This document shows, piece by piece, positions 1-28,898 of a stretch of 29,638 bases of DNA. How positions within the stretch are numbered: position 1 is the stretch's first letter; every line of letters starts with the position of its first letter. This stretch comes from Bdellovibrionota bacterium (GTDB taxonomy: Bacteria; Bdellovibrionota_C; UBA2361): contig JBILDU010000032.1 of NCBI GenBank assembly GCA_044352465.1, positions 1 to 29,638 of the forward strand, in the 5' to 3' direction. A program made the translations under genes and the position numbers. The notes beneath the pieces were generated by a model. That model was not told the DNA's origin. It worked only from the letters and a program-made list of their open reading frames with translations, and ran no database searches.

Positions 1-456
1 GAAGAGGGTGGGGATACAAATGCGCTGCCGTCGTATGAGCGCATCCTCGCGCCGCTCGCTCATCCGGAGATGAAAGCACTCGCCGAAACCCACGGACTCT
101 CGATCGATGACGTGCGTGATTGGTCGACCCTGCGCCTGGTTCTTAATTCGTTTGGATGGCTCGCTCGCCGGGTCGGCGACAGCACAGTCCCGGAATCGTC
201 CGTCGTGCTCGCCGTGCTCCAGGTCGGCAGCGGAGCCCCCGGGGCAAATGCGCTGGGACTCGTTGGTGAACGTGGTTTGGTGCCGATTCGTGCCTCGCAC
301 CTCGAGTCGGTGTGGGGGCGGAGTTGGCGTCACCGCCTACCGCTGGTGGAACGGGTGCGAATGGCCGCGGATCTCAACGATTTCGACAAGCTGCTCAAAG
401 GGATCGACGAAAGAGAAGAGGAGCTTCATCGAGCGTCATCAACCGGTATGGTGTAA
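1..456 (+). CDS. 5'-truncated protein, operon partner of the coupling protein; weak resemblance to the DotM/IcmP (TrbA) C-terminal domain
   Basis: Frame 1 is open from base 1 (EEGGDTNALPSYERIL...) to TAA 454-456, with a 6-nt gap to the next ATG. DWSTLRLVLNSFG...RRV...PESSVVLA loosely recalls the DotM-family DRxLWYxLNxxGR...E motif. The function is inferred. Confidence 0.6.
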   Translation, partial: EEGGDTNALPSYERILAPLAHPEMKALAETHGLSIDDVRDWSTLRLVLNSFGWLARRVGDSTVPESSVVLAVLQVGSGAPGANALGLVGERGLVPIRASHLESVWGRSWRHRLPLVERVRMAADLNDFDKLLKGIDEREEELHRASSTGMV

Positions 457-462
457 GGGGCT

Positions 463-2622
463 ATGGCACGCGAGTATAAACGAACCGACTTTGAGAGAGC
501 GCGCCGTGACGAGCGCCAGCGCGCGCTTACCCGGGCCGCGGCAGCATCAGCCGGCACCCTTGGTCTCGCCGCGACCCCGCTGCTCGCGCAGATCGACCCA
601 AGCCTCCTGTTTACCCTCGGTGCCATCCCGGCTATCGCGCTCGCCGGAGCGACCAAGACCGTTTTCGGGCAGGTATGTCTCGATCGCGAGCGGGAAAGGG
701 AGATCGAACAACGCGGCGGACGCCGGGTGCTCGGCATGCCCCCGGCTCGGAACTGCTTCGCGGAGGCGCTGGAGGATGCGCGCCGTCGCGGTAAAAACAT
801 GATCGACAAATACCTCGTCGGCTTCGAACTCGATACGGGGAAGCCCCTCTGGGTGAGCGATGACGAGATGTGTAGCCACGGGTGCGTTTTTGCGAAAACC
901 GGCGTCGGGAAAACGTTGTGGTTGGAGTCGCTTATCTTTCAGCAGCTCGCGCGTGGTCGTGCGAGCGGGTGCACCTTTATCGATGCAAAGCGCGACTCCG
1001 GTGTGCTGGCGCATCTGATCTTGATGGCGCTCGCTACGGGGCGGATCGAAGACCTGATCGTGATCGACCCGTTCGAGAGTCTGCACTGCTACAATTTCGT
1101 GCTGACGAATCAACGCGCCGACGTGAAAGCGCGTAAAGTACTGCGGGCCGGCTTGCCGCCGACCTCCGATCAAAGTGTGACCAAACACTACGACCGTCTC
1201 GCCGCTGACTCGATCTATCGGATGGTGCGGGCGATGGAGAGCTTTGGTCTGGCATGGTCGATGCGCGATATCGCGGTGGCGTTGTCGGCTTTCAATATCG
1301 CCTACCCGCATCTGCGCGGCATGCTCCATCGGGTGGGGGCGCGTCAAGCCATGGTTGAGCTCGGGCATCTCGCGTCGAGCTATCGAACAGCCAAAGGAAC
1401 CCTTGATTCTGCCCGGATTACCGACAACCTCCGGGGAATCGCCTCCGAGCTTCATGCGATCGCCGGCAGCGAAATGGGACAGGTCTTTTGTACCCAATAT
1501 TCTGATTTAGTTCTCACCGATGCGATTTTGCGGGGCAAAATCATCTACTTTATGTTGCCCCGTCTGGAAGAGGCGGAGAGCGCCGCGCGCATGGTGAAGG
1601 TGTTCCGCGAAGATTTAGAGGTTTCCATCGGGGAGATTACGTCCTCGCGCCATCACCATCTCGAGGACCCTCATCTTGTCGTCATCGACGAGGGGTCCTC
1701 GACCTTCGGACCTACCTGGGCGAACCTCTTCGAGCTAGCTCGGAAAGGACGCTTTTCGCTCCTCTTCGGTGCCCAATCGACCGGTGGTTTGACCGATGCC
1801 TCGGTAGGGTTAAGCGAGGCGTTCTATGAGCGGGTCATGGCGAACGTGAACCTCAAAGTCATGATGCGGATCGGCGATAATCGGACCGCCACCGACATGA
1901 CCGAATGGTTCGGCAAAGTCACGACGACGAAGAAATCGATCGGTGCAGGTGTCACGACAGGGCGCACTGCACACATCATGCGGGGTGCCCTTGATCTGAG
2001 TGCCCGTACGAGCGGCGGAGAATCACAATCGATTAGTATCTCAGAAGATGAAACTGATCTGGTCAGCGCCGAAGAGCTGAAACACGAGATGTCGGCCGAG
2101 AAGGGGCTCGCGTGGTTTGACCTTGGTGACGGGCGGATCGTCAAGGGGCGATCCTTTTGGTTTAACGCCGAACTCCCCGAGACGTGGGAGGGGCGCGAGT
2201 TCATCACCCACCTCGAGCGACTCGAGAACGACGAGATCGGGCTGGCCGAATGGGTTGATGAGCAGATCCTATCGATGGAGCGACGTGAAACTGAGTCGCA
2301 GTACACCCCACGGAGGGAGGATGGGACTTCGCCGACCACCCTGAACGAGCCGAGGGCGGGGACACCCAACGAGCGCACCGAGACAACCCCAGAGCCAACC
2401 GGTCCGTTTAAGCTCAATTTGATGCCGCGGGGACTCAAACCTCGTGGAGCGGTTACAGCTCTGCCGAAGGGGGGTGGGGCGGCGCCTGAGGTTCAGGATT
2501 CTCCGCCGGTGGCGGAAAAGAAATCAGCGCCGAGCGCCCCCGCTGAGCCACCAACCAAACCGCCGACCGGTGGTTCAAAGAGTGGCCCCGCCAAGCCGCT
2601 CATCCGGCGCGGAGGTAAGTAG
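463..2622 (+). CDS. Type IV secretion coupling protein (TraD/TrbC/DotL-like P-loop ATPase)
   Basis: AAGGGG RBS. Two N-terminal hydrophobic segments, LVGFELDTGKPLWV, Walker A HGCVFAKTGVGKT, FIDAKRD, DAILRGKIIYFMLP, Walker B LVVIDE, ARKGRFSLLFGAQS and NVNLKVMMRIGD, all typical of TraD/TraG-family coupling proteins. Pro/Gly/Lys-rich C-terminal tail. Confidence 0.88.
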   Translation: MAREYKRTDFERARRDERQRALTRAAAASAGTLGLAATPLLAQIDPSLLFTLGAIPAIALAGATKTVFGQVCLDREREREIEQRGGRRVLGMPPARNCFAEALEDARRRGKNMIDKYLVGFELDTGKPLWVSDDEMCSHGCVFAKTGVGKTLWLESLIFQQLARGRASGCTFIDAKRDSGVLAHLILMALATGRIEDLIVIDPFESLHCYNFVLTNQRADVKARKVLRAGLPPTSDQSVTKHYDRLAADSIYRMVRAMESFGLAWSMRDIAVALSAFNIAYPHLRGMLHRVGARQAMVELGHLASSYRTAKGTLDSARITDNLRGIASELHAIAGSEMGQVFCTQYSDLVLTDAILRGKIIYFMLPRLEEAESAARMVKVFREDLEVSIGEITSSRHHHLEDPHLVVIDEGSSTFGPTWANLFELARKGRFSLLFGAQSTGGLTDASVGLSEAFYERVMANVNLKVMMRIGDNRTATDMTEWFGKVTTTKKSIGAGVTTGRTAHIMRGALDLSARTSGGESQSISISEDETDLVSAEELKHEMSAEKGLAWFDLGDGRIVKGRSFWFNAELPETWEGREFITHLERLENDEIGLAEWVDEQILSMERRETESQYTPRREDGTSPTTLNEPRAGTPNERTETTPEPTGPFKLNLMPRGLKPRGAVTALPKGGGAAPEVQDSPPVAEKKSAPSAPAEPPTKPPTGGSKSGPAKPLIRRGGK

Positions 2623-2636
2623 CCCGGGTTTTTATT

Positions 2637-2792
2637 ACTGGACCTCGTTTTATTTGAGCTGGCAGATAAACGAACGGTGTTTTCTTGGCACTTTAATTTT
2701 GAAAGTGTAATCAAAGTATTATAATACTGCTGTCCAGTCGGCCGTGATGGGTGCTCGGCGCTCACACCGTCCCCGAAATAGCGGTTTGGGGA
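2637..2792. repeat. Cluster of inverted repeats in an AT-rich intergenic spacer
   Basis: ACTGGAC 2637-2643 / GTCCAGT 2732-2738 encloses TCGTTTTATTTG 2645-2656 / CAGATAAACGA 2663-2673, CACTTT 2689-2694 / AAAGTG 2702-2707 and the perfect palindrome AGTATTATAATACT 2715-2728. Two more hairpins lie at about 2739-2769 and 2770-2792. Confidence 0.7.
2699..2725 (+). promoter_or_regulatory. Possible sigma70-type promoter for the 2833 ORF
   Basis: TTGAAA 2699-2704 and a consensus TATAAT 2720-2725. The spacer is only 15 bp, and both boxes overlap inverted repeats. Confidence 0.4.
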
Positions 2793-2832
2793 AGGTTTTA
2801 ATCCTCTCTATATCACTGAGGGTCTGAAGGTT

Positions 2833-3318
2833 ATGTACGCAGGTGGAGTGACATTTTCGATTAATAAGTCGTTCGGCAGCCTTCAGCTCGTGCCTGAATC
2901 GACCGGCATGCGAGTGTACTACGTTCCGATCGTGAACGGGGTCGAAGCGGCCGATTCGCCCGGTTTCCTTAATCTCCTGATTCCGCTCGACGCGATCGGT
3001 GGCTTGTGGGCAACAACCCGAGCCTTCCTCTACGGAGTCGAGTCGCTCGATGAAAACGTCATCCTCCAGGGTGGGGACACCGAGGGTGATTCCGATATCC
3101 TTATCAAGTTGTATCGCGACAAACCCCGCGGCCAACAAGGCCGTCTGAGTGGTGAAGAGACCTGTTGGTTGAGATTGGTGACGGGGCGAACCGAAGAGGA
3201 ACGCCGCCGCATTAAGCTTGGACCTCGCGATCTCCTTTGTCTCGAGCTCGCCTGCAACTCGGTGATGATGTTAGCCACCGAGCATCAGACCCACCAGCCA
3301 CGGATTCTCGGGGCCTAG
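2833..3318 (+). CDS. Hypothetical protein, candidate Whirly-fold ssDNA-binding protein
   Basis: 161-aa ORF with GAAGG upstream. FSINKSFGSLQLVP resembles Whirly (F/Y)SIYKGKAAL(S/T)VEP, IPLDAIGGL resembles LSVTEIGSL, and the hydrophobicity suggests two strands-then-helix halves. The CDS is likely; the fold is inferred. Confidence 0.65.
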   Translation: MYAGGVTFSINKSFGSLQLVPESTGMRVYYVPIVNGVEAADSPGFLNLLIPLDAIGGLWATTRAFLYGVESLDENVILQGGDTEGDSDILIKLYRDKPRGQQGRLSGEETCWLRLVTGRTEEERRRIKLGPRDLLCLELACNSVMMLATEHQTHQPRILGA

Positions 3319-3570
3319 GCGAGGGGCGTTCGTAAGTCCCTCTACCGTACACTTTTCAGCACTGCCGTGCTCGTCTGACTATCGATGAGCGCCCTCATGC
3401 AGGGAGGCCACGATGGTGCAAAAACTTTCGGGCCGGAGTCCCAGTGCGAAATTCGGGCGAGAGCTCTTTTGAGAGGAGCTTCGCAGCGGTATCCTCAGAT
3501 ATAGCTGTGTCGGCCTTCTCTTGCGGGTTAGTATCGAGCGGCGACGAAATTTAATTAAGCCGGGCTGTGT

Positions 3571-4566
3571 GTGAACGAATCATCGGAGACCAAATTTTTT
3601 TTCGAGCTCACCCCGGAGCGGATCCTCGATGCGGTTGAGGAGATCGGCGTGCGGTGCACCGGCCGGTGTCTGCAGCTCAACAGCATGGAGAATCGGGTGT
3701 ACGAGGTTGAGATCGAGCTTGATGCTGCTCCCGTCTCTCCGGCCGAACGTTTCCGCATCGTAAAGTTTTATCGTCCCGGCCGCTGGAGTAAGGAGCAAAT
3801 CGGCGAGGAGCACCGTTTTCTGCTCGACCTCAAACGGGCCGAGATCCCCGTCGTGGCTCCCCTTGAATTCCCCGATGGCTCCACTCTACGGCGGGTGGGC
3901 GAGCTCGAGATATACTACGCGATATTCCCTAAGGTTGGTGGGCGTTCCCCCGATGAACTTGATGGGGAGCAGCTCATGTGGCTGGGGCGCTTACTTGCGC
4001 GTATCCATACGGTGGGAGCGCAGCAGGAGGCGACGCAGCGCCTTCGACTCAATCCCGCGACCTACGGAATTGATAATCTCAAATACCTGATCGACTCCGG
4101 CGTAGTACCTCGGGAGAGTCAGGCGGCGTATCGTGGGGTTGTGGAGCGTCTGTGCACCCTTGTAGAGCCTTGGTTTCACGAGGTGAAGACCCAGAGAATT
4201 CATGGCGATTGCCACTTAGGCAATATCCTCTGGGGTCGGGAAGGCCCGTTCTTCGTTGATTTCGATGATATGGTTGTGGGCCCGTGTGTTCAGGATGTCT
4301 GGCTTATCGTGCCCGGAAGGGATGAGCAGCAGTTACAATCGTTGCTGTCCGGTTACGAGCTCATGCGTCCGTTCGATCGGAATTCGCTGCGTCTCATCGA
4401 GCCACTCCGAGCCCTGCGTTTCGTTCATTTTAGCGCCTGGATAGCTCGGCGGTGGCACGATCCGGCGTTTCAGCGGGTGTTTCCGAATTTCGGTTCGGGG
4501 GGGTATTGGGGAGAGCAGCTCGCGGATCTCAACGAGCAATTGTCGATTATCTCAAACGGTTGGTAA
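3571..4566 (+). CDS. srkA: Stress-response Ser/Thr protein kinase SrkA/RdoA (YihE), APH-like fold
   Basis: LNSMENRVY, VKFYRPGRWS, EEHRF, catalytic IHGDCHLGNILW, DFDD, IEPLRALR and WIARRWHDPAF. GTG start. Confidence 0.93.
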   Translation: MNESSETKFFFELTPERILDAVEEIGVRCTGRCLQLNSMENRVYEVEIELDAAPVSPAERFRIVKFYRPGRWSKEQIGEEHRFLLDLKRAEIPVVAPLEFPDGSTLRRVGELEIYYAIFPKVGGRSPDELDGEQLMWLGRLLARIHTVGAQQEATQRLRLNPATYGIDNLKYLIDSGVVPRESQAAYRGVVERLCTLVEPWFHEVKTQRIHGDCHLGNILWGREGPFFVDFDDMVVGPCVQDVWLIVPGRDEQQLQSLLSGYELMRPFDRNSLRLIEPLRALRFVHFSAWIARRWHDPAFQRVFPNFGSGGYWGEQLADLNEQLSIISNGW

Positions 4567-4707
4567 GTGGTTTGACGACGCTCATGGTGGGAACCTCAGC
4601 GACACGACAGACCGAAGCGAAATCACGGGCAGCGATCTCTTCGATGTGCTAATCTTTTTTGTTTGAACGTGGGCTGTTGAGCCGAATGACGAATGGAGGG
4701 GGCGGCT

Positions 4708-5964
4708 GTGTCTTTTGATAGTAAGATAGTGCGGGTCGCGTGTGGAGGTCTCTTCGCCCTCGCTGTTGAGGCGAATTCCTCTGACGTGGCTTTTGCCGCG
4801 AGCGGTACCGAAGTGACCGTTGATGAGGTGTGGAGTATCGCGGTATCTCACAGTCCGGCCCTACAGAGAGCAGGCGCTGCCGGTGCGGTAATCGCCGCAG
4901 AGGGGCTGACCGCCGCTGCGCTGCTCGATCCTAGTCTTGAGGGAAAAGCGGAGTGGCCCACGGGGAGTCACGCCCCTGAGACCAAAAACGAATATGAGGT
5001 CAGCGTTGCCCAGCCGCTTCGGCTGGGTGATCTTACCGGAGAGCGGGGGAAGCTCGGACGAATCACTCAAACGTTCAGTGAACAGCAAGCGCACCAAGAA
5101 CGGCTCAAGGTGTTTTTTGAGGTTGAGGAGCTCTTTGCCGAGATCGCCGCACTTGAGGGGCTGAAGCCCGGTCTTTTGAAAAGTGGTGCGCGGGCCCGGC
5201 AGGTTTTGAATCGCTTGCACCATGGGTCAGCTCTGTTGTCTCTTCAAGGGAGTGAGCGCGCCCTCATTGAGGCAGAGGGCGAAGCGTTGATCGGAGCTGA
5301 GATAGCGCTCTTGGGTGAGATCTCGGAGCGGCGGGCGGCGCTCGAGAGGCTTATCGGGGCGCCGCTTCCTGAGGGTGCGCTGCAGCAGCCGAAACTTGGG
5401 GAGCCGCTTGAGTCGCGTGCATTTATCGCTGCCGTGAAGGATTCGCCGGAGGGGCTCGCGCGGCGATTGACGGTGCAGGCGGAGCGCGCGGAGCGACGGC
5501 TGGCGCTGACCCGCGTTGAACGGGGGGGAGTGCTCTCTCCTCGCCTGGTGTATCGTCGCAGCGATGATGGCACCGATTTTTTGGGCTTTGCGCTCGAAGT
5601 TCCCCTGCCGGTGTGGGGTGCCTCGCGAGGGGAGCAGGTGGTGCACGAGAGTGAGCGTGCGGCGGCGCTCACGGAGCAGCGTTTCGTGGAGTCCCCGGCG
5701 TTCGAGCGATATCTTACCGCGCTGGTGGTCGGATACGGGGAACGGCGGCGGCACGCTGACGTGGTGCAGAAAAAAATTATTCCGGCGCTCGTTCGCGCGG
5801 CGGACGCGGGGGCCAAAGAGCTTCAAGCAGGGCAGATCTCGGTGGCGCAGTTTATCGCGCTCGTGCGGGATCTCCATGAGCGCTCGCGCGAAGGGGTCGA
5901 AGCGTATCTGACAGCGCTACGAATCGGAACTGAACTTCGTCTGCTACAGGGGGATGGGGTATGA
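4708..5964 (+). CDS. TolC/CzcC-family outer membrane efflux channel
   Basis: First gene of the RND operon. Signal-like N-terminus, HSPAL, EVSVAQPLRLG, FALEVPLPVW and GQISVAQFI. GGAGG at 4695-4699 favours GTG 4708 over ATG 4693. Overlaps the next gene (ATGA). Confidence 0.82.
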   Translation: MSFDSKIVRVACGGLFALAVEANSSDVAFAASGTEVTVDEVWSIAVSHSPALQRAGAAGAVIAAEGLTAAALLDPSLEGKAEWPTGSHAPETKNEYEVSVAQPLRLGDLTGERGKLGRITQTFSEQQAHQERLKVFFEVEELFAEIAALEGLKPGLLKSGARARQVLNRLHHGSALLSLQGSERALIEAEGEALIGAEIALLGEISERRAALERLIGAPLPEGALQQPKLGEPLESRAFIAAVKDSPEGLARRLTVQAERAERRLALTRVERGGVLSPRLVYRRSDDGTDFLGFALEVPLPVWGASRGEQVVHESERAAALTEQRFVESPAFERYLTALVVGYGERRRHADVVQKKIIPALVRAADAGAKELQAGQISVAQFIALVRDLHERSREGVEAYLTALRIGTELRLLQGDGV

Positions 5965-7424
5965 GAGTGGTTTTATCTATCGCGGTTGTAATCGTCGCGC
6001 TGATGGTGAGCAATATTACACCGGCATCAGCGGGTGGGGGACATCTCCACGGCTATTCTGGGGGGCGCGACGATGGGGGCGAAGAGCCGGTCGTCCTCTT
6101 AGGGAACGACGCCATCGCGAACCTCGCCATCAAAACGATCAAGGTCTCTGCCGCACCGCCGATCGGAGCGCGATTGAGCGGGGTGATTGAGCGTCTTCCC
6201 GATGGCATCGTCACCGTATCAGCTCCGACCGGTGGTGCCATTACCAAAGTCAGCACGCGTCCTGGGGAGTCGGTAAAGCGGGGCCAGGCGGTTGCTTTCT
6301 TCTCCCCCTTTCAGGTCGGCGCAGGCGCGTTTCCCCTCCTCGCGCCGATCGATGGGGTTGTGGCGAGTATCGGTGCTCCTCTAGGTGCAGGGCGTGAAGC
6401 GGGGACCGTATTGTTCACGGTGATCGATGCGCAACGGGTCGGCCTCGTGGCTCCTGTCATCGGCAGCGACCGTGTTAATCTCAAAGTCGGAGACTCGGTC
6501 CCCGTACTCGTTCGTGGAGATGCTCAGCCTTTTCAGGGGAGGATCTACCTGATTGAGCAGGGGGGCGCAGATGTCTCAGTAGTCGGACGGATCGTTGTCG
6601 AGCTTTTACCACGCGAGGGAGCCCTCCCCACCCTTGGGGCGGTCGGTTCGCTCATCCGTCCCGGTGAAGGGGCTGCCCGTGTTTTTCCGCTCCCTCGTGA
6701 GGCCGTGGTTGGAAATGTGATCAAACCGGTGGTCTTCGTGCGACGTGGAAATAGGTTCGTGCGGCGCGACGTAGTTGTGGCGCGTGACCTCGGGGAGATA
6801 ATTGAAATCGAGCGTGGACTCGCGGAGGGAGAGCCCGTCGTGGTGAAGGGGGCGTACCAAATGAATCTAGCGCGGAGCGATTCCCCGGAGAAACTCACCG
6901 TCGGACCCCACGAGGGGGTCGTGACCACTTGTTCGTCGACGAATGCTCCCAGCTTTTTTGCTGAGATCAAGCTGCACGACGATAAGGGTGACATCGAAAT
7001 ATGGCTCGGCAAGACCGCTGATTTCAAAGAGTCGCACCGCATCCCACCGACAGCGAAAGTTGCCCTGGGGTTCTCTGAGCAGGGGCGGTCGGTCGACCTG
7101 GCGGTGCGCGACCTCCGGTCGAACCTGGACGAGGACGGCACTACGCGCCTTAAAGACGGAGTAACCGATTATTTTATCTTTCCGGGCGAAACCGGAAGCG
7201 ATGCGCGGTGGCTTCAAGGTGGGGAATTTATCGATGAGGTGATTCTCACGGTAACGCACTCGGGTGAAAGCAGCGTGTGTGAGGTGGTTACTCTCATACC
7301 GCATAGTCATGGAGCTGCCGCCCACTCGCATGGTGAGGTGGAGGATAGTCACGAACATGCCCACGATGATCATGGGCATTCTCACGATCACTCGCACGAT
7401 CACGGAGGGGCGCATTCGCATTAA
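5961..7424 (+). CDS. CzcB/CusB-type periplasmic adaptor fused to an extra C-terminal domain and His-rich tail
   Basis: Signal peptide, lipoyl halves VSAPTGG...PGESVKRGQ and LLAPIDGVV, LPREAVV, and IEIERGLAEGEPVVVKGAYQ. An extra domain starts at GPHEG (6903). 15 of the last 40 residues are His. Confidence 0.87.
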   Translation: MRVVLSIAVVIVALMVSNITPASAGGGHLHGYSGGRDDGGEEPVVLLGNDAIANLAIKTIKVSAAPPIGARLSGVIERLPDGIVTVSAPTGGAITKVSTRPGESVKRGQAVAFFSPFQVGAGAFPLLAPIDGVVASIGAPLGAGREAGTVLFTVIDAQRVGLVAPVIGSDRVNLKVGDSVPVLVRGDAQPFQGRIYLIEQGGADVSVVGRIVVELLPREGALPTLGAVGSLIRPGEGAARVFPLPREAVVGNVIKPVVFVRRGNRFVRRDVVVARDLGEIIEIERGLAEGEPVVVKGAYQMNLARSDSPEKLTVGPHEGVVTTCSSTNAPSFFAEIKLHDDKGDIEIWLGKTADFKESHRIPPTAKVALGFSEQGRSVDLAVRDLRSNLDEDGTTRLKDGVTDYFIFPGETGSDARWLQGGEFIDEVILTVTHSGESSVCEVVTLIPHSHGAAAHSHGEVEDSHEHAHDDHGHSHDHSHDHGGAHSH

Positions 7425-10715: not shown

Positions 10716-13700
10716 ATGGCTGAGCGTCTTTCGTTTCGTTTATTCACGATTTGCACCGTGTTCGTTCTCGGCTTCTTCGTTGGAGCGGCCCCCCGCGTCG
10801 CTCACGCCGCACCGGTGCCGAACGTTGCGCTACAGGTTGAGGCAGCGACACTCCTCAACGACTATACCGACCTTTTCGTATCTTTTACGAATACCGGCGA
10901 CGCACTCGGTTATTACCCGATGATCGAACTTAAACTCCCGGCGGGGCTCGAGTGCGATGCGACGTGTCGGTCAAACATCAAGATCACCAACCTCGAAGGT
11001 GCGCCGGTGACGCTCTCTGCGTTTGGGCCCGCGGGGTCGAATACGACCTTCGCAAATCCGGTGACGGGTAACCCGGTAGCGGTAACAACCGGTCAGTCGG
11101 TACTCTTTATCTCGCTGCCGGTTGGAAGCGTTGCCCCGAATGAGCCGGCCATCACCTATTTCGTACCTGCCACGGTGAATTCGAACGCTCCGCTCGGGGT
11201 ACAACTTCCGGTGACTGCGACGGCGGTTTTTGCCCTCGGTAGTGTGCCTAATGGGGTGCGCGGTGCCTGCTCAGCAGGCGGAGTGGATACGCTCTGTACC
11301 GCAGCGACACCTGTCAACGTGACTCCGGCAGCGCTGACTCTCTCAAAGAGCATCGAGAATCTGTTTGATGGGGCGACCTCGACGGGCCCTAGTTACCCGC
11401 GTCGCTTCAAAGTTGAGGTCCTCGTGGCGGAAGGGGAAACCGCCACGACGGTCGCGGTGAGCGATACCTTGCCTGACACCTTTGTCTTTACCGCGTTGCC
11501 AGGTGTCGACTGTAAAGCAAGCCCCGGCAGCTTGACGTTTACCCCCGAGCTGGGAGCCGGTGATAGCTGCGCTTTTACCGGAGATGCTACCGGGGGCGGG
11601 GTCGTCACCGTTACCTTTGCGAGCGTCACCGGCGGTCCGGCCATCGACCGAGAGATATCCTATACCGGCTTCGTCCAGGAGTTCGCCGGAGGAAGTGGGG
11701 GACCGATAGTGCCTCCAGCGACGGGAGCGACAACCACATCCACAAACTCCGCCGTGGCGAATTACTTTTTTGATCCGGGAACCGGCTCGACTGCGTTCGT
11801 CAGCCCGACCGAATCGACGACGCTGACCCACAGCTCGCTCTATACGACGAAATCGGTCAGCAACACGACGACCGGAGGGACAACGGGCAAGCCGGGGGAT
11901 ACCCTGACCCACACTTTGATTTACGATATCTCCGATTACTTCTCGTTCGACGATCTCGATATCCTCGACACGATCGGAGACGGCCAAACCTACGTCCCTG
12001 GCTCGCTTGAGGTCGCTGTTTTTGAGGGGTCGACGACGGCGACAACCCGTTCAGAAGCCGACCTTGCGGCGGCCACCGGCAACCCGCTGCAGCCGATTAC
12101 GAAGGACGGGACAACGGGAGAAACGACCATTGAGCTTGCCCTCTCCACAGCCCTTATTGCGGCTGCACCGAATGGGTTCGGTGCCGCGGATGGGGTCCTG
12201 ACAGGTGCGGATGACCTCGGCGCTGGTACGCCGACCAGAGTCGTCATCACCTATCAAACGATCGTCGACGAGGAGTTTACGGGGCCGGTCGTCGGCACCC
12301 CCGCTGTTGACGGTGGCGACGTCGTCACCAATACGATGAGCGCCAACTTTCAGATCGTGGGCACGACCAATCGGGTGACGAGTCAGTCGACCGCATCGAT
12401 GGTGATTACCCCGATTCAGGCGCTTCAAAAGACTATCGAATTTGAGAACGGTGCTCCAGTCACGAGTTTGCCGATCACCGTGAATCCAGGCGAGACGGTG
12501 ACCTTTCGTCTTGCGTTCACCATTCCCACCGGTGACGTCGAAGGGTTGGAATTGAAGGATTTCGTGCCATCACCCCTTTTTGACCCCACCGATCCAACGG
12601 CGAGCGGTAGCCCCTCCAACTTTATCTTTGATGCGACTCCGAGCGATGCTGCTCCAGCTTCGGGTCGTGTCCATTTGACCACCGCGAGTGCCCCGGTTAC
12701 CCCCATCATTACGACCAACGGCGCTGAGGATTCGCTTACTTTCTCGTTCGATAACGAGAGCACTGTGACGAGTGCGCCTCTTTTTATCGAGCTTCTCTTC
12801 ACGATGACCGCCACAACCAATCCACTTGCCAACGACCTTCTGTTGGTGAACGTAGCCTACCTCACTCAAAAAAGTAGTCAGAGTTCTACCCCGGTGAATC
12901 AACTTTCCGCGGTGGCGTCGCTCCTTACAGATGAACCGAAACTTGTTGTTCGCAAATTCGCCCAAGCGGTGGTCTCGGGAACTGGTGCGATATCGGGGAG
13001 CGGTGCAAACGCAAACTTCTCGAACATATTGCCGGGAGCGCGGCTCCGCTTTCAGGTCGAGATCGAGAACGTCGGTGACTACGATGCATTCGACGTATCG
13101 CTGGAAGACGTCCTTCCGGTAGGTCTCACCCCGGTCCCGGCGACGATGACCTTCTCGAACTGCGCGACTCTGGGAGGGACCGCCGAGACCTCCGCGGGAA
13201 GCCGGTTTAGCGCCACCGGTATGGATATTCCGGACGGGCAGACCTGTACGATTCGCTACGAGGTGGACCTTGATGCTACCGCTCCTTTTGGGGGAATAAT
13301 CACGAACACCGCCGTCGTGAGGTATGCCTCTGCCATCGGGGGGCCGCTTTTCTCGCCAGAGTCGGAGATCGCGACCACCACAGCGATATCGCCGAGCCTC
13401 ACCAAGACTTTCGTTGCGGGGAGTAGTTCCGATAGCTCGACGAGTGGCACGAATCTTCGTCCGGGTGAGAGCGCGGAGTTCGAAGTGACGGTCTCGGTTC
13501 CCCCTGGTACCGCTGAGTCGTTCACGATTCGGGAGCGGGACATCGCGAGCGGGGGTACGTCGAGTAACTTTTTTGAAAATTTTACGACGGGGACGGTTAT
13601 CTTCCCGAGTATCGAATCGAATCCAGCGTGTGGTGGTCTCTTCAACTTTGTTGGTAATACAAACGTCTGCTTTGAGCTCAACCCAAATTCGACTCAGACT

Positions 13701-16286
13701 CAGTCCAGCGCGACGATCCATCGGGTGAACCTCGGTAATCTCACCAACTCGGCGGGATCGAATCAGTCGTTCAGTTTTCGCTACCGTGCCACGGTGCGGG
13801 CTGGCTTGACCCCCGGCGCGTACACCAATCGGGCTGATGTCGAATGGGTCACGAAGAACGCCAACGTGGATGGGCAGACATCGCAGCAGAAAACCTCGTT
13901 GACGGCCACCGCTGGTTTTACGGTCGTTCGTCCAACGTTGGCCTTGCAAAAAAATACCTTGTCCACCCCGCCGCTTCGATTCGGTGATAGCGCGGAATAT
14001 GTCGTGACCCTCACGAATACCGGGACAGCGACTGCTCACGATGTGGCGAATATCGTCGATACCCTCCCGGTTGGACTCGGCACGGCAACCCTCGTGAGCG
14101 CTCAGCTCAATGGGGTCTCCGTCACCGGGGCCGCTGGTTTTAGCTTCACCCAGAGTGGGCAGCAGCTTACCGTGACGGTGCGGAACCTCTCGGGGCAAGC
14201 CCGCCTTGCCGCGGGCGATGCATATGTGGTGCGCTATTCGGCACCACTTACAACGACGGTCACCGGGGGCACCGCGGCGCTTATCAACACGGTGGGTGTT
14301 GCCAGCTACGCCACCGGGCCGATCGACGGTGGTCCGCGGGAGACTTTAACGAATATCCCACCGGCGAGCACGACGCTCACCGTCGATAGTAACAACATCT
14401 TCGGTCGGGCCGTTTTTGCGAAGGAAACCGCGGGTTCAACGACTCAGAACGGTGTGAGTGGTGTGACGGTAGTGATCGTTGGTACTGCTTTCACCACAAC
14501 TACCGATTCGAATGGAAACTTTACCTTCCGCGGAGTGCCTGACGGGACCTACACGATTCGGGCAACCTCAGTTTTTGGTGATGTTCTCGGCAATGAGAGC
14601 GTTACTGTGACAAACGCCGATGCGCATAACGTCGTCTTTCAGGCGCGGCCACGGATCGTTCTTACCAAGAGCACCTCAACCGTTGGTCCCGTGGTCCCAG
14701 GGCAAAATATCGATTACACTGTGACGCTCCAAAACGTGGGCAATTATCCAGCATTCCAGGTGGCGGATATCGAGGATAACCTCGCCACGGGGCTTGGAAC
14801 GGCTTCCGTGCTGACCGCGACCTACCAGGGGAGCAGCGTCACCGGAGTGGCTGGCTTCGCGCTTTCACAGACCGGTAGTGCCGTCACGATTACGGTGCGT
14901 AATCTGGCGGGGCTACCCCAGATAGATGTGGGGGACACCTTTGCTGTTTCGTACCGCGTGCCGGTCTTAAGTTCGTTGCCGGTCGGGGAGATAACCATTC
15001 CCAATTCCGCGTCGATTGCGAGCTATGCCACCACGGCGAGCACCGGTGCCTCGACTGAAACGTATCTTGATGTGCGGTGTGGCGAGGTTACCTTGACCGG
15101 CTCTCATTATACCTTAAGCGGTCATGTCCGGATTGAGGGACTTACCACGGGTATTCTAGGGTCAACGATTGAGATCAACGGGGTTGGTATCTCAACCTCC
15201 ACCACGACCGACAGCGCAGGTTTCTATATCCTGACCGGTCTTCCCCCAGGGACGTACACGTTGACGGCGCGTACCCCCGCGGGTGATCTCATCGAGACCC
15301 GCACGGTGACTATAACGAACGCGAGTATCCTCGATGAGGATTTCGCTCTCGACATGGTCATTACGGTCTCCAAATCGTTTGATCCAGCCTCGATAGGGTT
15401 CGGCGAGACCTCGACTCTGACGATTACCCTCGCCAATACCTCAACTGAGCTGGCTGCCTCTGCAGTTGCCTTTAACGATATCTTTCCGGCCGAGATGAGA
15501 ATCGCCGCAGGCGCGATTGTTTCAAATACGTGCGGTGGGACCGTCACGGCGGATGAAGGCACGGGAGGGCTTCAGCTTGCTGGCGGGGCCCTCGCGGCCT
15601 CGGGTGCGTGTGAGATCACCGCGACCGTCACGGCAACTGCGTCGGGTGATAATACCATTTCGAACGGCGCTGGCTCCGCGCAAACCGGCCCTACAGGACC
15701 GTCGAGTAACACGGCGACCCTCACGGTCGGAGATGATCCCGCGTGTGTGACGTCGTCGCTTGCAGCGCCTCTCAACGCGATGAACCTACGCGCCCAACGG
15801 TTGAAACGTACCTTGAACGAAGCGATTTCGCTGCGCCGACGCTACGCGGCAGCGGGTTTTTGTAAAGCTGCGGATAACGGGTGCCTCGTTTGTTCCCCCG
15901 GTCGTCGGCAGTGTTTGAACGTGTGCCGTCTCCCCTCGGCCAAGGGTGACCGGAAAAAACTGGAGCTCGGCAGTAAATTACGTCTCCAGATCAACGGAGC
16001 TACCCGACACGGGCTCGAACCGGCGACGTTCGCGGCTGCCTGTGTCGTGACCCGAGACTGTGCGTCGAAGACTCTCTCAACGCCGGTGTCCCGGATATCA
16101 TCGGCTGGTGAGGCCTTACAGGGACTCGTTCATGACGTACTGGATAGCTGTTGCCTCAGGACCGCGCGCGCGCCGGCGCAGCTCAGGCAACGCCGCGCGG
16201 CGCTCCGTCTCGCCGCTAACCGAGATGCTATGCGACTGATGCGGGATATGGCGAGGTATCCGAGCCCGGTCTTGGTCTGTCAGTAG
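10716..16286 (+). CDS. Giant secreted adhesin-like protein: DUF11/isopeptide-forming domains, two carboxypeptidase-regulatory-like domains, Cys-rich basic C-terminal domain
   Basis: Signal peptide ending AHA-A. Thr/Ser/Gly-rich. Repeated LxKx...PGxxxxY/F...DxLP...NxA motifs. TTTDSNGNFTFRGVPDGTYTI and TTTDSAGFYILTGLPPGTYTL. Confidence 0.88.
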   Translation: MAERLSFRLFTICTVFVLGFFVGAAPRVAHAAPVPNVALQVEAATLLNDYTDLFVSFTNTGDALGYYPMIELKLPAGLECDATCRSNIKITNLEGAPVTLSAFGPAGSNTTFANPVTGNPVAVTTGQSVLFISLPVGSVAPNEPAITYFVPATVNSNAPLGVQLPVTATAVFALGSVPNGVRGACSAGGVDTLCTAATPVNVTPAALTLSKSIENLFDGATSTGPSYPRRFKVEVLVAEGETATTVAVSDTLPDTFVFTALPGVDCKASPGSLTFTPELGAGDSCAFTGDATGGGVVTVTFASVTGGPAIDREISYTGFVQEFAGGSGGPIVPPATGATTTSTNSAVANYFFDPGTGSTAFVSPTESTTLTHSSLYTTKSVSNTTTGGTTGKPGDTLTHTLIYDISDYFSFDDLDILDTIGDGQTYVPGSLEVAVFEGSTTATTRSEADLAAATGNPLQPITKDGTTGETTIELALSTALIAAAPNGFGAADGVLTGADDLGAGTPTRVVITYQTIVDEEFTGPVVGTPAVDGGDVVTNTMSANFQIVGTTNRVTSQSTASMVITPIQALQKTIEFENGAPVTSLPITVNPGETVTFRLAFTIPTGDVEGLELKDFVPSPLFDPTDPTASGSPSNFIFDATPSDAAPASGRVHLTTASAPVTPIITTNGAEDSLTFSFDNESTVTSAPLFIELLFTMTATTNPLANDLLLVNVAYLTQKSSQSSTPVNQLSAVASLLTDEPKLVVRKFAQAVVSGTGAISGSGANANFSNILPGARLRFQVEIENVGDYDAFDVSLEDVLPVGLTPVPATMTFSNCATLGGTAETSAGSRFSATGMDIPDGQTCTIRYEVDLDATAPFGGIITNTAVVRYASAIGGPLFSPESEIATTTAISPSLTKTFVAGSSSDSSTSGTNLRPGESAEFEVTVSVPPGTAESFTIRERDIASGGTSSNFFENFTTGTVIFPSIESNPACGGLFNFVGNTNVCFELNPNSTQTQSSATIHRVNLGNLTNSAGSNQSFSFRYRATVRAGLTPGAYTNRADVEWVTKNANVDGQTSQQKTSLTATAGFTVVRPTLALQKNTLSTPPLRFGDSAEYVVTLTNTGTATAHDVANIVDTLPVGLGTATLVSAQLNGVSVTGAAGFSFTQSGQQLTVTVRNLSGQARLAAGDAYVVRYSAPLTTTVTGGTAALINTVGVASYATGPIDGGPRETLTNIPPASTTLTVDSNNIFGRAVFAKETAGSTTQNGVSGVTVVIVGTAFTTTTDSNGNFTFRGVPDGTYTIRATSVFGDVLGNESVTVTNADAHNVVFQARPRIVLTKSTSTVGPVVPGQNIDYTVTLQNVGNYPAFQVADIEDNLATGLGTASVLTATYQGSSVTGVAGFALSQTGSAVTITVRNLAGLPQIDVGDTFAVSYRVPVLSSLPVGEITIPNSASIASYATTASTGASTETYLDVRCGEVTLTGSHYTLSGHVRIEGLTTGILGSTIEINGVGISTSTTTDSAGFYILTGLPPGTYTLTARTPAGDLIETRTVTITNASILDEDFALDMVITVSKSFDPASIGFGETSTLTITLANTSTELAASAVAFNDIFPAEMRIAAGAIVSNTCGGTVTADEGTGGLQLAGGALAASGACEITATVTATASGDNTISNGAGSAQTGPTGPSSNTATLTVGDDPACVTSSLAAPLNAMNLRAQRLKRTLNEAISLRRRYAAAGFCKAADNGCLVCSPGRRQCLNVCRLPSAKGDRKKLELGSKLRLQINGATRHGLEPATFAAACVVTRDCASKTLSTPVSRISSAGEALQGLVHDVLDSCCLRTARAPAQLRQRRAALRLAANRDAMRLMRDMARYPSPVLVCQ
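13929..15350 (+). repeat. Intragenic tandem duplication of a DUF11 + carboxypeptidase-regulatory-like module (13929-14645, 14646-15350)
   Basis: Both units share GLGTA, GxSVTGxAGF, TxTVRNLxG, ASYAT, TTTDSxG and GTYT at equivalent positions. The period is about 239 aa. Confidence 0.8.
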
Positions 16287-22000: not shown

Positions 22001-22266
22001 CAGCCAGCCTTCCGAAGCACGGTGTATCCCTGCATCGTTTTGAAGCGGGGCCAGACGTCCTTTAATGAGGACTGCATGATGTGCCCGATGTGGGGGCGTC
22101 CATTCGTCCCCGGCGGACCATCGTAGAAGACAAAGTTCTTGCCGAGTCGGCTCACCCGCTCGGTCTTTTTAAAGATATCCCGCTCCTCCCAGAATTTGAG
22201 GATAAGGTGGTCGTTTTTCGAAAAATCGATCGAGTTTGGAGCTGGTTGAAAAGACTTGGACTGCAT
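19060..22266 (-). CDS. ileS: Isoleucine--tRNA ligase, type 2 (IleRS2)
   Basis: [47 protein letters not shown] and KMSKS. The C-terminus EGNAREIV...QKQRK lacks the IleRS1 Zn finger. ATG 22266 is preferred over 22308. Confidence 0.97.
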
Positions 22267-22496
22267 ATCGGTTGAAAATTTCCTACCCCGCGACGATACC
22301 GCCCCCACAACCAGTTATCAATAGCTTACCTTCACCTCCAAGTCTCAGAGACCTTGCGTAAGCGATATACGCGATTTGACGGCCCGCTCGAGACCTTTTG
22401 GGCCCAACCCGGCCCAATCACCTTTTTGGGCAATGCGCTCCCCCTGACTTTGAAGTAAGATCTTCAATTACGTTTTTACTAAGCCACTGTTCTACT

Positions 22497-28628: not shown

Positions 28629-28898
28629 ATGGCATCGAAGCACCTCAAAACGTTGCAGGCGGTCTTCGATACACCGGTTCGCTCGAGCATTCAGTGGAGG
28701 GACATCGAGAAGATGCTTCTTGCTCTTGGGGCTGAGATTTCGGAGGGGGGCGGTTCCAGAGTTCGAATAGCTCTCAACGAAGTCCGTGCGGTCTTCCACC
28801 GACCGCACCCACGAAAGGAGACGGATAAGGGTGCTGTTGTTTCGATGAGGCGATTTTTAATGGCTGCGGGAGTTACGCCAGAGGAGGACAGCCTATGA
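28629..28898 (+). CDS. hicA: HicA-family toxin (mRNA interferase)
   Basis: IQWRDIEKMLLALGAEISEGGGSRV and FHRPHP. ATGA overlap with hicB. Confidence 0.93.
   Translation: MASKHLKTLQAVFDTPVRSSIQWRDIEKMLLALGAEISEGGGSRVRIALNEVRAVFHRPHPRKETDKGAVVSMRRFLMAAGVTPEEDSL

What the first reader, a model, noticed from the sequence alone, without database searches (positions are those of the whole stretch)
1..3318. Candidate undescribed type IV transfer module: DotM-like + TraD/DotL-like coupling ATPase + hairpin array + Whirly-like protein
Seen: a coupling ATPase tightly linked to an upstream ORF, followed by an inverted-repeat-rich spacer and an orphan ORF, directly next to ordinary chromosomal genes (srkA, RND pump). 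No relaxase, integrase or att site is visible on this side. Known: dotM-dotL (icmP-icmO) and IncI trbA/trbC form the coupling complex of type IVB systems, which move either DNA or effector proteins. Inference: this is the end of a divergent, possibly domesticated type IVB-like locus with an unusual ssDNA-binding partner. The left part of the locus is outside the window.
Basis: partly seen in the sequence, partly recalled or inferred. Interest (0 to 1): 0.78.

Follow-up and report, generated by a model that had tools for sequence, protein, structure and literature searches.

The report
Chromosomal type IV secretion coupling module
These three genes are one end of a conjugation-like secretion machine that has become a permanent chromosomal feature of a whole uncultured branch of Bdellovibrio-like lake bacteria; it is paired with a protein folded like plant single-stranded-DNA binders, and what it transports is unknown.

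Summary
The genes are real. Window 1-3318 holds the C-terminal 151 aa of a ~690-aa membrane protein (ORF1), an intact TraD/DotL-branch coupling ATPase (T4CP, 463-2622) and a 161-aa protein (ORF3, 2833-3318) whose confident model has a Whirly fold.

The window is a whole contig. The missing left part lies on contig C101: the ORF1 N-terminus and a divergent operon u149-u145-TraE-TraK-TraB-TraV-u163-TraC plus six conserved genes.

This is not an ICE or plasmid. In the genome's GTDB phylum (124 species genomes), mostly one match per genome:
- TraC: 121/124.
- T4CP: 114/124.
- ORF1: 113/124.
- ORF3: 114/124.

Identity falls with taxonomic distance. Five relaxase families are absent from this genome and found in 0-19 of 124.

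ORF1 and T4CP are adjacent and lost together in 9 genomes. ORF3 and TraC stay in most of these.

- The machine is F-like, not type IVB.
- ORF1 shows no detectable DotM, MobH or other homology.
- The "hairpin array" is not supported or conserved.

Best reading: the substrate-receptor arm of a host-owned, relaxase-less T4SS, substrate unknown. The scan reported the same system before in other genomes (e1-3347700, e1-4842167). My three literature searches found no paper on it.

The parts
1..456 (+). ORF1, C-terminal 151 aa of a ~690-aa inner-membrane protein that always precedes the coupling ATPase. The N-terminal ~490 aa lie on contig C101:1476->1, and about 50 aa fall in the gap between the contigs.
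   Evidence: Full-length homologue L002:1904-3976 (690 aa). Hydropathy and the AF2 model (pLDDT 83.1) give an N-terminal helix, a helical loop domain, a helical hairpin, then a ~500-aa cytoplasmic part. No family match. Found in 113/124 phylum genomes.
463..2622 (+). Type IV coupling protein (T4CP), 719 aa. It has an N-terminal hydrophobic segment, intact Walker A (GVGKT) and Walker B (VVIDEG) motifs, a TraG-D_C domain and a basic Pro/Lys-rich C-terminal tail (pI 10.1) with a conserved short motif.
   Evidence: Found in 114/124 phylum genomes, nearly all with one match, at 59-92% identity. Nearest plasmid relatives are <=30% identical, apart from a solitary Leptolyngbya copy.
2623..2832 (.). 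Spacer, variable in length and sequence among relatives. It holds a promoter-like site (2699-2728) and a terminator-like hairpin (2770-2792). It is not a conserved repeat or hairpin array.
2833..3318 (+). ORF3, 161 aa, cytoplasmic, (beta4-alpha)x2 Whirly/PUR-type fold. It belongs to a small unnamed family confined essentially to this lineage.
   Evidence: No Pfam, NCBIfam or PDB-sequence match. Found in 114/124 genomes, 72/73 high-quality. 619 'hypothetical' homologues. Only 28 representatives among 1.84 billion clustered proteins.
3571..4566 (+). srkA-like kinase: the first ordinary chromosomal gene and the right border of the locus in this genome. Not part of the system.
   Evidence: 3.4e-117. 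It is a neighbour only in the closest relative L002.

Best explanation
Window 1-3318 is the substrate-receptor arm of a host-owned, vertically inherited, relaxase-less type IV secretion system. The system descends from F-like conjugation machinery and is fixed in the chromosome of an uncultured Bdellovibrionota-affiliated phylum.

Shown:
- The arm (ORF1-T4CP-ORF3) is transcribed divergently from a conserved operon that encodes the envelope channel and its motor: TraE, TraK/VirB9-like, TraB/VirB10-like, TraV lipoprotein and TraC/VirB4. Lipoprotein, bPH, SH3 and M23-peptidase genes follow.
- All parts are mostly single-match core genes of the phylum.
- ORF1 and T4CP are always adjacent, probably translationally coupled, and are lost together.

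Inferred:
- ORF1 is a membrane-anchored partner that forms the inner-membrane receptor platform with the T4CP hexamer. This is analogous to DotM with DotL, but without detectable homology.
- The ATPase recruits substrates and hands them to the TraC-powered channel.
- No conserved relaxase exists, so the cargo is not a conventionally nicked plasmid strand. Most likely it is proteins, possibly nucleoprotein, delivered to other cells or the exterior as part of this lineage's way of life.
- ORF3 is a cytoplasmic accessory that, by its fold, binds a single-stranded nucleic acid or acts as an adaptor. It works with the machine rather than strictly with the T4CP.
For: Locus structure:
- The ORF1 N-terminus and the Tra operon lie on C101. 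The same 17-gene order is seen in L026, L006, L012, G107, G011 and G039.

Fixation in the phylum:
- TraC 121/124 (73/73 high-quality), T4CP 114/124 (69/73), ORF1 113/124 (69/73), ORF3 114/124 (72/73), mostly one match per genome; where two are listed they are pieces of one gene on different contigs.
- T4CP identity is 92% in the same genus, 65-80% in the same order and 59-68% in other orders.

Chromosomal setting:
- Flanks are housekeeping genes: srkA, RND efflux and IleRS in the window; GcpE on C101; IleRS again beside L026.
- GC is 0.56-0.63 against a genome mean of 0.574.
- No tRNA or integrase in the window.

Relaxases in 124 genomes:
- TrwC 6, TraI_2 0, PF03432 19, MobA_MobL 1, Mob_Pre 2. 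This genome has 0 of all five.

ORF1-T4CP pairing:
- 6-nt gap.
- Both are absent in the same 9 genomes, with three exceptions: 2 genomes have T4CP only and 1 has ORF1 only.
- In G041 and G042 the pair is cleanly missing and ORF3 sits beside the u149 gene.

Other points:
- The T4CP is intact. Its Walker motifs and most of the soluble domain are invariant in 22 sequences.
- ORF3 fold. ORF3 linkage: 41 of 54 assessable loci.
Against: - No substrate, effector or signal was identified, and nothing shows secretion.
- ORF3 is acidic overall (pI 5.2), which is unusual for a nucleic-acid binder.
- ORF3 is kept in 7 of the 9 genomes that lack ORF1 and T4CP. In some genomes it is unlinked: it lies on other contigs in G036-G038 and G040, and next to parB in G001. 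So its tie to the T4CP is not obligatory.
- TraC persists in 8 of the 9 genomes without a T4CP, so the channel has a T4CP-independent role in some lineages.
- ORF1 has no detectable similarity to DotM, so its 'receptor partner' role rests on linkage and topology only.
- Relaxase families other than the five searched, or a novel one, are not excluded.
- All genomes are MAGs, and the lifestyle of the lineage is unknown.
Confidence: 0.6

Rival explanations
1. A nucleic-acid-handling T4SS. The machine takes up or releases DNA or RNA without a canonical relaxase, in the manner recalled for Helicobacter ComB (uptake, no T4CP) or the Neisseria GGI (ssDNA release). ORF3 would be the cytoplasmic single-strand binder that receives or delivers the strand.
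For: - The ORF3 model matches only single-stranded-nucleic-acid binders well: StWhy2 Z 12.4, MRP1/2 12.3, PBF-2 11.5, Pur-alpha 7.2, with the next row at 5.8. Foldseek gives the same top families.
- ORF3 stays with the Tra operon in genomes that lost the T4CP. This fits a T4CP-independent uptake mode.
- ORF3-like domains are fused to TIR domains in 3 of 12 representatives scanned, as expected for a ligand-sensing module.
Against: - Fold does not prove ligand. ORF3 is acidic (pI 5.2).
- No competence-type partners were examined.
- 114 of 124 genomes do keep a T4CP, which the ComB-type uptake system (as recalled) lacks.
- No relaxase or other pilot protein is known for export.
Confidence: 0.25
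2. ORF3 is not part of the secretion system. It would be a lineage-specific housekeeping nucleic-acid-binding protein (nucleoid, repair or RNA metabolism) that merely sits next to the T4CP in many genomes.
For: - It is as universal as any core gene (72/73 high-quality genomes).
- It is present in T4CP-less genomes, and in the reduced family f22 it is far from TraC and beside parB.
- It is separated from the T4CP by a variable spacer that carries its own promoter-like and terminator-like sites.
Against: - It lies 45-406 nt behind the T4CP in 41 of 54 assessable loci, spanning lineages whose T4CPs are only ~60% identical.
- When ORF1 and T4CP are deleted it remains at the Tra operon's divergent promoter (G041, G042).
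- When it has moved it often stays within 5-15 kb of Tra genes (G039, G057, G047).
Confidence: 0.25
3. An ordinary mobile element: the end of an ICE or plasmid conjugation module whose relaxase, oriT and integrase lie elsewhere.
For: - The gene order relaxase-position gene / T4CP / traL-E-K-B-V / traC mirrors the IncC plasmid pTC2: mobH-traD ... traL-E-K-B-V-A ... traC.
- Sporadic relaxases do exist in some genomes of the phylum.
Against: - The parts are near-universal, mostly with one match per genome, and identity tracks taxonomy across 36 families.
- Flanks are housekeeping genes.
- This genome has none of five relaxase families.
- ORF1 is not similar to MobH (hhalign probability 0.4%).
- The nearest plasmid TraC is only 23-31% identical.
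Confidence: 0.03

Closest known systems
F-type (MPF_F) conjugative T4SS, especially the SXT/R391/IncC sub-type (traI/mobH-traD, traL-E-K-B-V-A, traC)
   Same: - TraE, TraK, TraB, TraV and TraC homologues occur in the same order.
- The T4CP scores best against SXT_TraD and aligns with IncC TraD over 363 columns (hhalign E 6.4e-5).
- A large gene directly precedes the T4CP, as mobH precedes traD in pTC2.
   Different: - All scores are far below the curated cut-offs: TraC 189 bits against 567, SXT_TraD 65 against 366.
- The gene before the T4CP is a membrane protein unrelated to MobH.
- No pilin or TraL was recognised. TraU and TraH are absent in 0 of 5 genomes searched.
- No relaxase.
- It is chromosomal, single-copy and vertically inherited rather than mobile.
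Dot/Icm type IVB coupling complex (DotL/IcmO-DotM/IcmP with IcmS, IcmW, LvgA, DotN) of Legionella
   Same: - The best solved relative of the T4CP is DotL (6sz9, E 1.4e-12).
- A membrane-anchored partner gene lies directly upstream.
- The T4CP has a C-terminal extension. A small acidic protein is encoded next to it; the composition of the DotL complex is recalled, not tested.
- It is a lineage-wide, relaxase-less, host-owned system.
   Different: - The channel genes are F-like, not DotC/D/F/G/H.
- ORF1 is ~690 aa and shows no sequence or fold match to DotM.
- ORF3 has a Whirly fold, not the fold of the known adaptors.
Whirly / PUR / MRP superfamily of single-stranded nucleic-acid binders (PBF-2/p24, StWhy2, AtWHY1-3, Pur-alpha, trypanosome MRP1/2)
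   Same: - Two beta4-alpha repeats.
- VIA Z 11.5-12.4 over 125-132 residues at rmsd 3.0-3.3.
- Foldseek E 2.3e-4, TM 0.59.
   Different: - 9-17% identity and no Pfam Whirly hit at E <= 1.
- It is bacterial and acidic.
- Oligomeric state and ligand are untested.
- It is linked to a secretion ATPase.
Lineage-wide domesticated T4SSs (Rickettsiales rvh, Legionellales Dot/Icm; recalled) and DNA-uptake/release T4SSs (Helicobacter ComB, Neisseria GGI; recalled)
   Same: Chromosomal, vertically inherited and not self-transmissible. A subset of genomes runs the channel without a T4CP, as ComB does.
   Different: It has a different ancestry (F-like minimal set) and a different host lineage (free-living lake MAGs of 1.2-5.3 Mb). 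The cargo is unknown.

Membership tests
Type IV coupling protein (VirD4/TraD/DotL superfamily) | P-loop NTPase with Walker A and B motifs and the TraG-D_C / TraM-recognition region | tested here: met
   Pfam TraG-D_C 1.2e-6 (28.9 bits, cut-off 22). GVGKT and VVIDEG motifs are present and invariant in 22 sequences.
Type IV coupling protein (VirD4/TraD/DotL superfamily) | N-terminal membrane anchor | tested here: inconclusive
   Only a weak hydrophobic segment at residues ~30-60 by Kyte-Doolittle (score 1.5). No dedicated predictor was available.
Type IV coupling protein (VirD4/TraD/DotL superfamily) | Homology to an experimentally solved T4CP | tested here: met
   IcmO/DotL 6sz9_A, E 1.4e-12, two aligned stretches (120-202, 337-490). 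IncC TraD, hhalign E 6.4e-5.
Type IVB (Dot/Icm, MPF_I) secretion system | Channel built from DotC/DotD/DotH/DotG/DotF-type parts with DotO/IcmB and DotB ATPases | tested here: not met
   The linked operon is TraE/TraK/TraB/TraV/TraC by Pfam. The VirB4 scores best as TraC-F-type at 8.4e-56. No Dot/Icm family appeared in any scan.
DotM/IcmP (T4CP partner) | Sequence or fold homology to DotM | tested here: inconclusive
   No Pfam or NCBIfam family. The profile of 33 sequences gave 0 hits at E <= 10 against all PDB chains. Foldseek best E 0.25. VIA gave only generic helical bundles and an HD-like middle domain at Z ~8. The model was searched whole at 690 aa, which weakens single-domain matches.
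DotM/IcmP (T4CP partner) | Membrane-anchored protein encoded directly upstream of, and co-inherited with, the T4CP | tested here: met
   6-nt gap. Adjacent in 62 of 70 loci; 6 of the other 8 have no upstream DNA. Co-absent in 9 genomes. TM helices.
F-type (MPF_F) T4SS | TraE, TraK, TraB, TraV and TraC core | tested here: met
   Pfam TraE 6.5e-6, TraK_N 3.2e-4, TrbI 4.2e-14, TraV 3e-4, TraC_F_IV 1.5e-15. NCBIfam hits are all below the curated cut-offs.
F-type (MPF_F) T4SS | F-specific pilus and mating-pair genes (TraA pilin, TraL, TraW, TraU, TraN, TraF, TraH, TraG) | tested here: not met
   TraU 0 of 5 and TraH 0 of 5 genomes. No pilin or TraL was recognised among the conserved small genes. 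Only a weak TraG_N-like protein exists at a separate locus, in 3 of 5 genomes with 1 over the cut-off. TraW, TraN and TraF were not searched.
Conjugative element (ICE or plasmid) | Relaxase plus oriT; integrase and att sites or a replicon; patchy distribution | tested here: not met
   Five relaxase families occur in 0-19 of 124 genomes and none occurs in this genome. No integrase or tRNA in the window. The core genes are near-universal, mostly with one match per genome.
Whirly family (Pfam PF08536) / PUR superfamily | Two beta4-alpha repeats forming the Whirly fold | tested here: met
   AF2 pLDDT 89.4, pTM 0.83. VIA Z 12.4, 12.3 and 11.5. Foldseek E 2.3e-4.
Whirly family (Pfam PF08536) / PUR superfamily | Sequence membership | tested here: not met
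   0 Pfam families at E <= 1. 0 PDB sequence hits at E <= 10. The profile search gave only noise.
Whirly family (Pfam PF08536) / PUR superfamily | Tetramer formation and binding of single-stranded nucleic acid | not testable with these tools

The most novel reading that the evidence does not exclude
The system is a new functional class of T4SS. In it, a relaxase-independent channel works with a dedicated Whirly-fold single-strand binder to move nucleic acid, for example importing DNA or RNA from prey or neighbouring cells, or exporting it. ORF1 would be a new type of T4CP-bound receptor or processing subunit that replaces the relaxosome.
Probability: 0.18. Interest if true: 0.9.

Novelty: new variant of a known kind. 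Interest (0 to 1): 0.72.

Why it matters
Type IV secretion systems fixed across a whole lineage are known mainly from obligate intracellular bacteria, where they inject effectors.

Here an F-like machine is a near-universal chromosomal gene set, mostly with one match per genome, across 36 families of uncultured, apparently free-living lake bacteria affiliated with the largely predatory Bdellovibrionota. That argues it is central to how these organisms live.

Two of the three window genes have no known relatives:
- ORF1 is a new T4CP partner.
- ORF3 is a bacterial Whirly-fold protein.

They offer concrete, expressible handles to find out what the machine carries. The natural loss of the ORF1-T4CP pair in some lineages, with the channel and ORF3 retained, is a ready-made comparative experiment.

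Tried and rejected
- Complex prediction, T4CP residues 90-719 with ORF3: no verdict (scores 0.00 and 0.16, mark 0.32). It counts neither for nor against binding.
- The look-up of sequencing runs: 20 DNA holders (lake and freshwater metagenomes) and no RNA holder listed, so expression could not be examined.
- The protein-atlas search on full-length ORF1: no usable hit.
- ORF1 against other partner proteins:
  - Pseudomonas megaplasmid helix-hairpin-helix protein that precedes its T4CP: hhalign probability 0.2%.
  - IncC MobH relaxase: probability 0.4%.
  - The idea that ORF1 is a degenerate MOBH relaxase came from the weak HD-like fold match (Z ~8). It is not supported, and no H/D metal motif is among the invariant columns.
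- DotM likeness of ORF1: no support.
- Hairpin array, oriT or small RNA in the spacer: no repeats, weak fold z-score, no Rfam hit, no conservation. A script that also computed fold z-scores for all spacers timed out, and that part was dropped.
- T4CP tree: the careful search did not finish, so only the quick tree was used. Outgroup branches are saturated, so no rooting claim is made.
- Literature:
  - Three searches ('Bdellovibrionota' + 'type IV secretion'; 'Oligoflexia' + 'T4SS'; 'Whirly' + 'type IV secretion' + 'bacterial') gave 8, 13 and 3 papers.
  - I read only the search listings, plus passages of PMC12428579 (terms in the reference list only) and of bioRxiv 10.1101/2023.03.20.533568 (unrelated VirB/VirD4 plasmids).
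  - None describes this system. Papers outside the held library were not searched.

Full report
OBSERVATION

The window is the whole 29,638-base contig C140 of a 170-contig, 3.13-Mb MAG (94.9% complete, 0.41% contamination). Its first 3.3 kb carries three + strand ORFs:
- 1-456, open at the 5' end, 151 aa.
- 463-2622, 719 aa.
- 2833-3318, 161 aa.

ORF1 ends in TAA at 454-456. The ATG of the second gene follows after 6 nt, with a GGGG just upstream.

The 719-aa protein is a type IV coupling protein (T4CP):
- Pfam TraG-D_C, 1.2e-6.
- NCBIfam SXT_TraD 3.9e-18, TrbC_conju 1.5e-14 and TOL TraD 9.4e-8, all far below the curated cut-offs.
- Best solved relative IcmO/DotL (6sz9), E 1.4e-12.

ORF3 and the ORF1 fragment have no Pfam, NCBIfam or PDB-sequence match. 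Downstream come srkA (3.4e-117) and an OEP/HlyD/AcrB efflux set. Other chromosomal genes follow, including IleRS. There is no tRNA and no integrase domain in the window.

The spacer 2623-2832 is not a hairpin array:
- 0 inverted repeats.
- Fold z = -1.84, with 9 of 200 shuffles folding as well.
- One terminator-like and one promoter-like site.
- No Rfam hit.

THE REST OF THE LOCUS

Homologues of the T4CP were found in 70 loci of MAGs labelled Bdellovibrionota, Oligoflexia, Deltaproteobacteria or similar.

ORF1:
- In those loci ORF1 is the end of a 620-740-aa gene directly upstream of the T4CP, in 62 of 70 loci.
- Six of the other eight loci have no upstream DNA. Two are too divergent for the 151-aa query.

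ORF3:
- It lies 45-406 nt downstream in 41 of 54 loci that have at least 1.5 kb after the T4CP.
- It lies 2-6.7 kb away in 4 loci and is not in the flank in 9.

Upstream, on the other strand, lies u149-u145-TraE-TraK-TraB(TrbI)-TraV-u163-TraC.

In the window's own genome this part is on contig C101:
- ORF1 residues 1-490 run from C101:1473 to 1.
- The Tra operon occupies C101:1649-9095.
- It is followed by a lipoprotein, a 149-aa protein, a bPH_2 protein, an SH3 protein, an M23 peptidase and a 134-aa protein. Five of these six also give matches behind TraC in distant members; the 149-aa protein matches only in part or not at all.
- GcpE lies beyond them.

So the locus is about 17 genes long, is split by an assembly gap inside ORF1, and is flanked by housekeeping genes on both sides.

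DISTRIBUTION

The genome's phylum, as held by the tool, has 124 species genomes in one class, with 36 families and 64 genera.

| Gene | Genomes with a match | High-quality genomes |
|---|---|---|
| TraC | 121/124 | 73/73 |
| T4CP | 114/124 | 69/73 |
| ORF1 | 113/124 | 69/73 |
| ORF3 | 114/124 | 72/73 |

- Nearly all genomes have one match. Where two are listed, they are pieces of one gene on different contigs.
- T4CP identity to the window is 92% in the same genus, 65-80% in the same order and 59-68% in the other orders. TraC behaves alike, from 96% down to 57%. This is the pattern of vertical descent.
- Relaxase families are sporadic: TrwC 6/124, TraI_2 0/124, PF03432 19/124, MobA_MobL 1/124, Mob_Pre 2/124. 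This genome has none.
- The nearest plasmid TraC proteins are F-type at 23-31% identity. 1,286 records matched, all below 60%.

This refutes an ICE or plasmid. It supports a host-owned machine.

ORF1 AND THE T4CP ARE A UNIT

- Ten genomes lack the T4CP at E <= 1e-20. Five of them were re-searched at E <= 1e-3, and none had a match.
- Eleven genomes lack ORF1.
- Nine lack both: G041, G042, G058, G116, G118, G119, G001, G002 and G004, at 70-97% completeness.
- Two fragmented genomes have only the T4CP. One has only a partial ORF1.
- In G041 and G042 (94% and 97% complete) the pair is cleanly missing, and ORF3 sits directly beside u149.
- Eight of the nine keep TraC, and seven keep ORF3.

The channel and ORF3 therefore have a role that does not need the T4CP in some lineages.

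THE PROTEINS

T4CP:
- The Walker A and B motifs and most of the soluble domain are invariant in 22 sequences.
- The last ~100 residues are basic (pI 10.1), low in complexity, and contain a short conserved motif.

ORF1:
- The full-length homologue L002 gave an AF2 model with pLDDT 83.1.
- It has an N-terminal helix, a helical domain, a hydrophobic hairpin, then about 500 cytoplasmic residues.
- Foldseek found nothing at E <= 0.001.
- VIA gave generic helical bundles (Z up to 9.9) and an HD-domain-like middle part (YhaM, Z 8.1), both within the range the tool calls common.
- A 33-sequence profile hit no PDB chain.
- It is not similar to IncC MobH or to the protein preceding the T4CP on Pseudomonas megaplasmids.
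- 'DotM-like' therefore holds only for position, topology and co-inheritance.

ORF3:
- 35 homologues are 52-96% identical.
- The AF2 model has pLDDT 89.4 and pTM 0.83, with two beta4-alpha repeats.
- VIA: StWhy2 Z 12.4 (rmsd 3.0, 132 aligned), MRP1/2 Z 12.3, PBF-2 Z 11.5, Pur-alpha Z 7.2. The next row is 5.8.
- Foldseek: PBF-2 E 2.3e-4, TM 0.59.
- The family is small. 619 homologues are all 'hypothetical' with no Pfam domain. Only 28 representatives exist among 1.84 billion clustered proteins.
- Three of 12 representatives scanned carry an N-terminal TIR_2 domain.
- ORF3 is acidic (pI 5.2).

TYPE OF MACHINE

- The VirB4 scores best as TraC-F-type (8.4e-56). TraE, TraK and TraB match F-type models weakly.
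- TraU and TraH were not found in 5 genomes.
- A TraG_N/VirB6-like protein of ~1,100 aa sits at a second conserved locus: own contig C62; G057; G047; and four tandem copies in G011, one of them over the Pfam cut-off.
- The gene order resembles IncC pTC2: mobH-traD, then traL-E-K-B-V-A, then traC.
- It is thus a stripped-down F-like system, not type IVB.

MECHANISM

Shown: linkage, co-inheritance, intact motifs, folds, and the absence of five relaxase families.

Inferred:
- ORF1 and the T4CP form the inner-membrane receptor that feeds the TraC-powered TraE/K/B/V channel.
- Without a conserved relaxase, the cargo is most likely protein, possibly nucleoprotein.
- ORF3 is an accessory that binds single-stranded nucleic acid or acts as an adaptor.

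I put 0.6 on this reading. I put 0.25 on a nucleic-acid uptake or release machine with ORF3 as the strand binder. I put 0.25 on ORF3 being an unrelated housekeeping protein, which overlaps with the other readings. I put 0.03 on a mobile element.

WHAT IS RECALLED, NOT TESTED

- The composition of the DotL complex.
- ComB lacking a T4CP.
- The Neisseria GGI.
- Rickettsiales rvh.
- The HD signature of MOBH relaxases.
- Whirly tetramers.
- The MPF nomenclature.

NOVELTY

Three literature searches and the passages read showed no description of this system. The library does not hold most subscription-journal papers.

Earlier reports of this scan (e1-3347700, e1-4842167) describe the same system in other genomes and reach the same main reading. 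My counts were made independently and agree: TraC in 121 genomes, F-like core, no relaxase, ssDNA-binder-like fold.

New here:
- The joint loss of ORF1 and T4CP with ORF3 retained.
- The negative tests of ORF1 against DotM, MobH and the megaplasmid partner.
- The TIR fusions.
- The second TraG-like locus.
- The Leptolyngbya T4CP.
- The finding that the spacer is not a conserved element.

LIMITS

- All genomes are MAGs.
- No expression data could be found.
- The complex prediction gave no verdict.
- ORF1 domains were not folded separately.
- TraW, TraN, TraF and other relaxase families were not searched.

Noticed in passing
L093:15734-17803 (Leptolyngbya boryana plasmid pLBX, NZ_AP014640.1): A solitary T4CP 61% identical to the window's (residues 89-632) sits next to a protelomerase gene on a 505-kb linear cyanobacterial plasmid. 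It has no ORF1, ORF3 or Tra genes nearby. In a quick tree it falls inside the Bdellovibrionota-like clade (clade SH-aLRT 100, inner placement weak at 80) on a long branch. This suggests transfer out of this lineage.
   Followed up: partly
P0242, P0244, P0248 (representatives found with the ORF3 profile): The ORF3-like Whirly-fold domain is fused to an N-terminal TIR_2 domain (E 7e-22 to 2.5e-24) in 3 of 12 representatives scanned. Two others (P0247, P0249) carry an unknown ~190-aa N-terminal extension.
   Followed up: partly
G000:C62 about 1700-6500 (minus strand); L096:4684-10876; L097:3760-10213; L098:4616-18089: A second conserved locus encodes a ~1,100-aa TraG_N/VirB6-like membrane protein, preceded by ~400-aa and ~600-aa unknown proteins. 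G011 has four tandem paralogues, one over the Pfam cut-off.
   Followed up: partly
L074 (G042:C16), L075 (G041:C54), L076 (G116:C3): These genomes lack ORF1 and the T4CP but keep the whole Tra operon. ORF3 lies directly (G041, G042) or 1.7 kb (G116) beyond the u149 gene. This is a natural deletion of the coupling pair.
   Followed up: yes
L084:8112-8519 and L083:10783-13506 (G001, 1.2-Mb genome, family f22): In the most reduced family the ORF3 homologue (37% identity) lies between an ABC-transporter binding-protein gene and parB. TraC stands among housekeeping genes with only one unknown 403-aa neighbour.
   Followed up: partly
L072:9120-13076 (own contig C101): Six genes downstream of TraC encode a lipoprotein, a 149-aa protein, a bPH_2 protein, a coiled-coil SH3 protein, an M23 peptidoglycan peptidase and a 134-aa protein. 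Five give matches in the same order behind TraC across the phylum, while the 149-aa protein matches only in part or not at all. They may be the machine's cell-wall module.
   Followed up: partly
window 5961-7424: The membrane-fusion protein of the RND set ends in a long His/Asp-rich tail, suggesting a metal-efflux pump.
   Followed up: no
window 10716-16286: A 1,856-aa protein with DUF11, CarboxypepD_reg and DUF7933 repeats. It is probably a large surface protein.
   Followed up: no
window 28895-29206: A HicB-family antitoxin-like ORF near the right end of the contig.
   Followed up: no
window 19060-22308 and L026:14481-17678: Isoleucyl-tRNA synthetase lies within 17 kb of the locus here and 2.3 kb from it in a relative with 70% T4CP identity. 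This suggests a conserved chromosomal neighbourhood.
   Followed up: no
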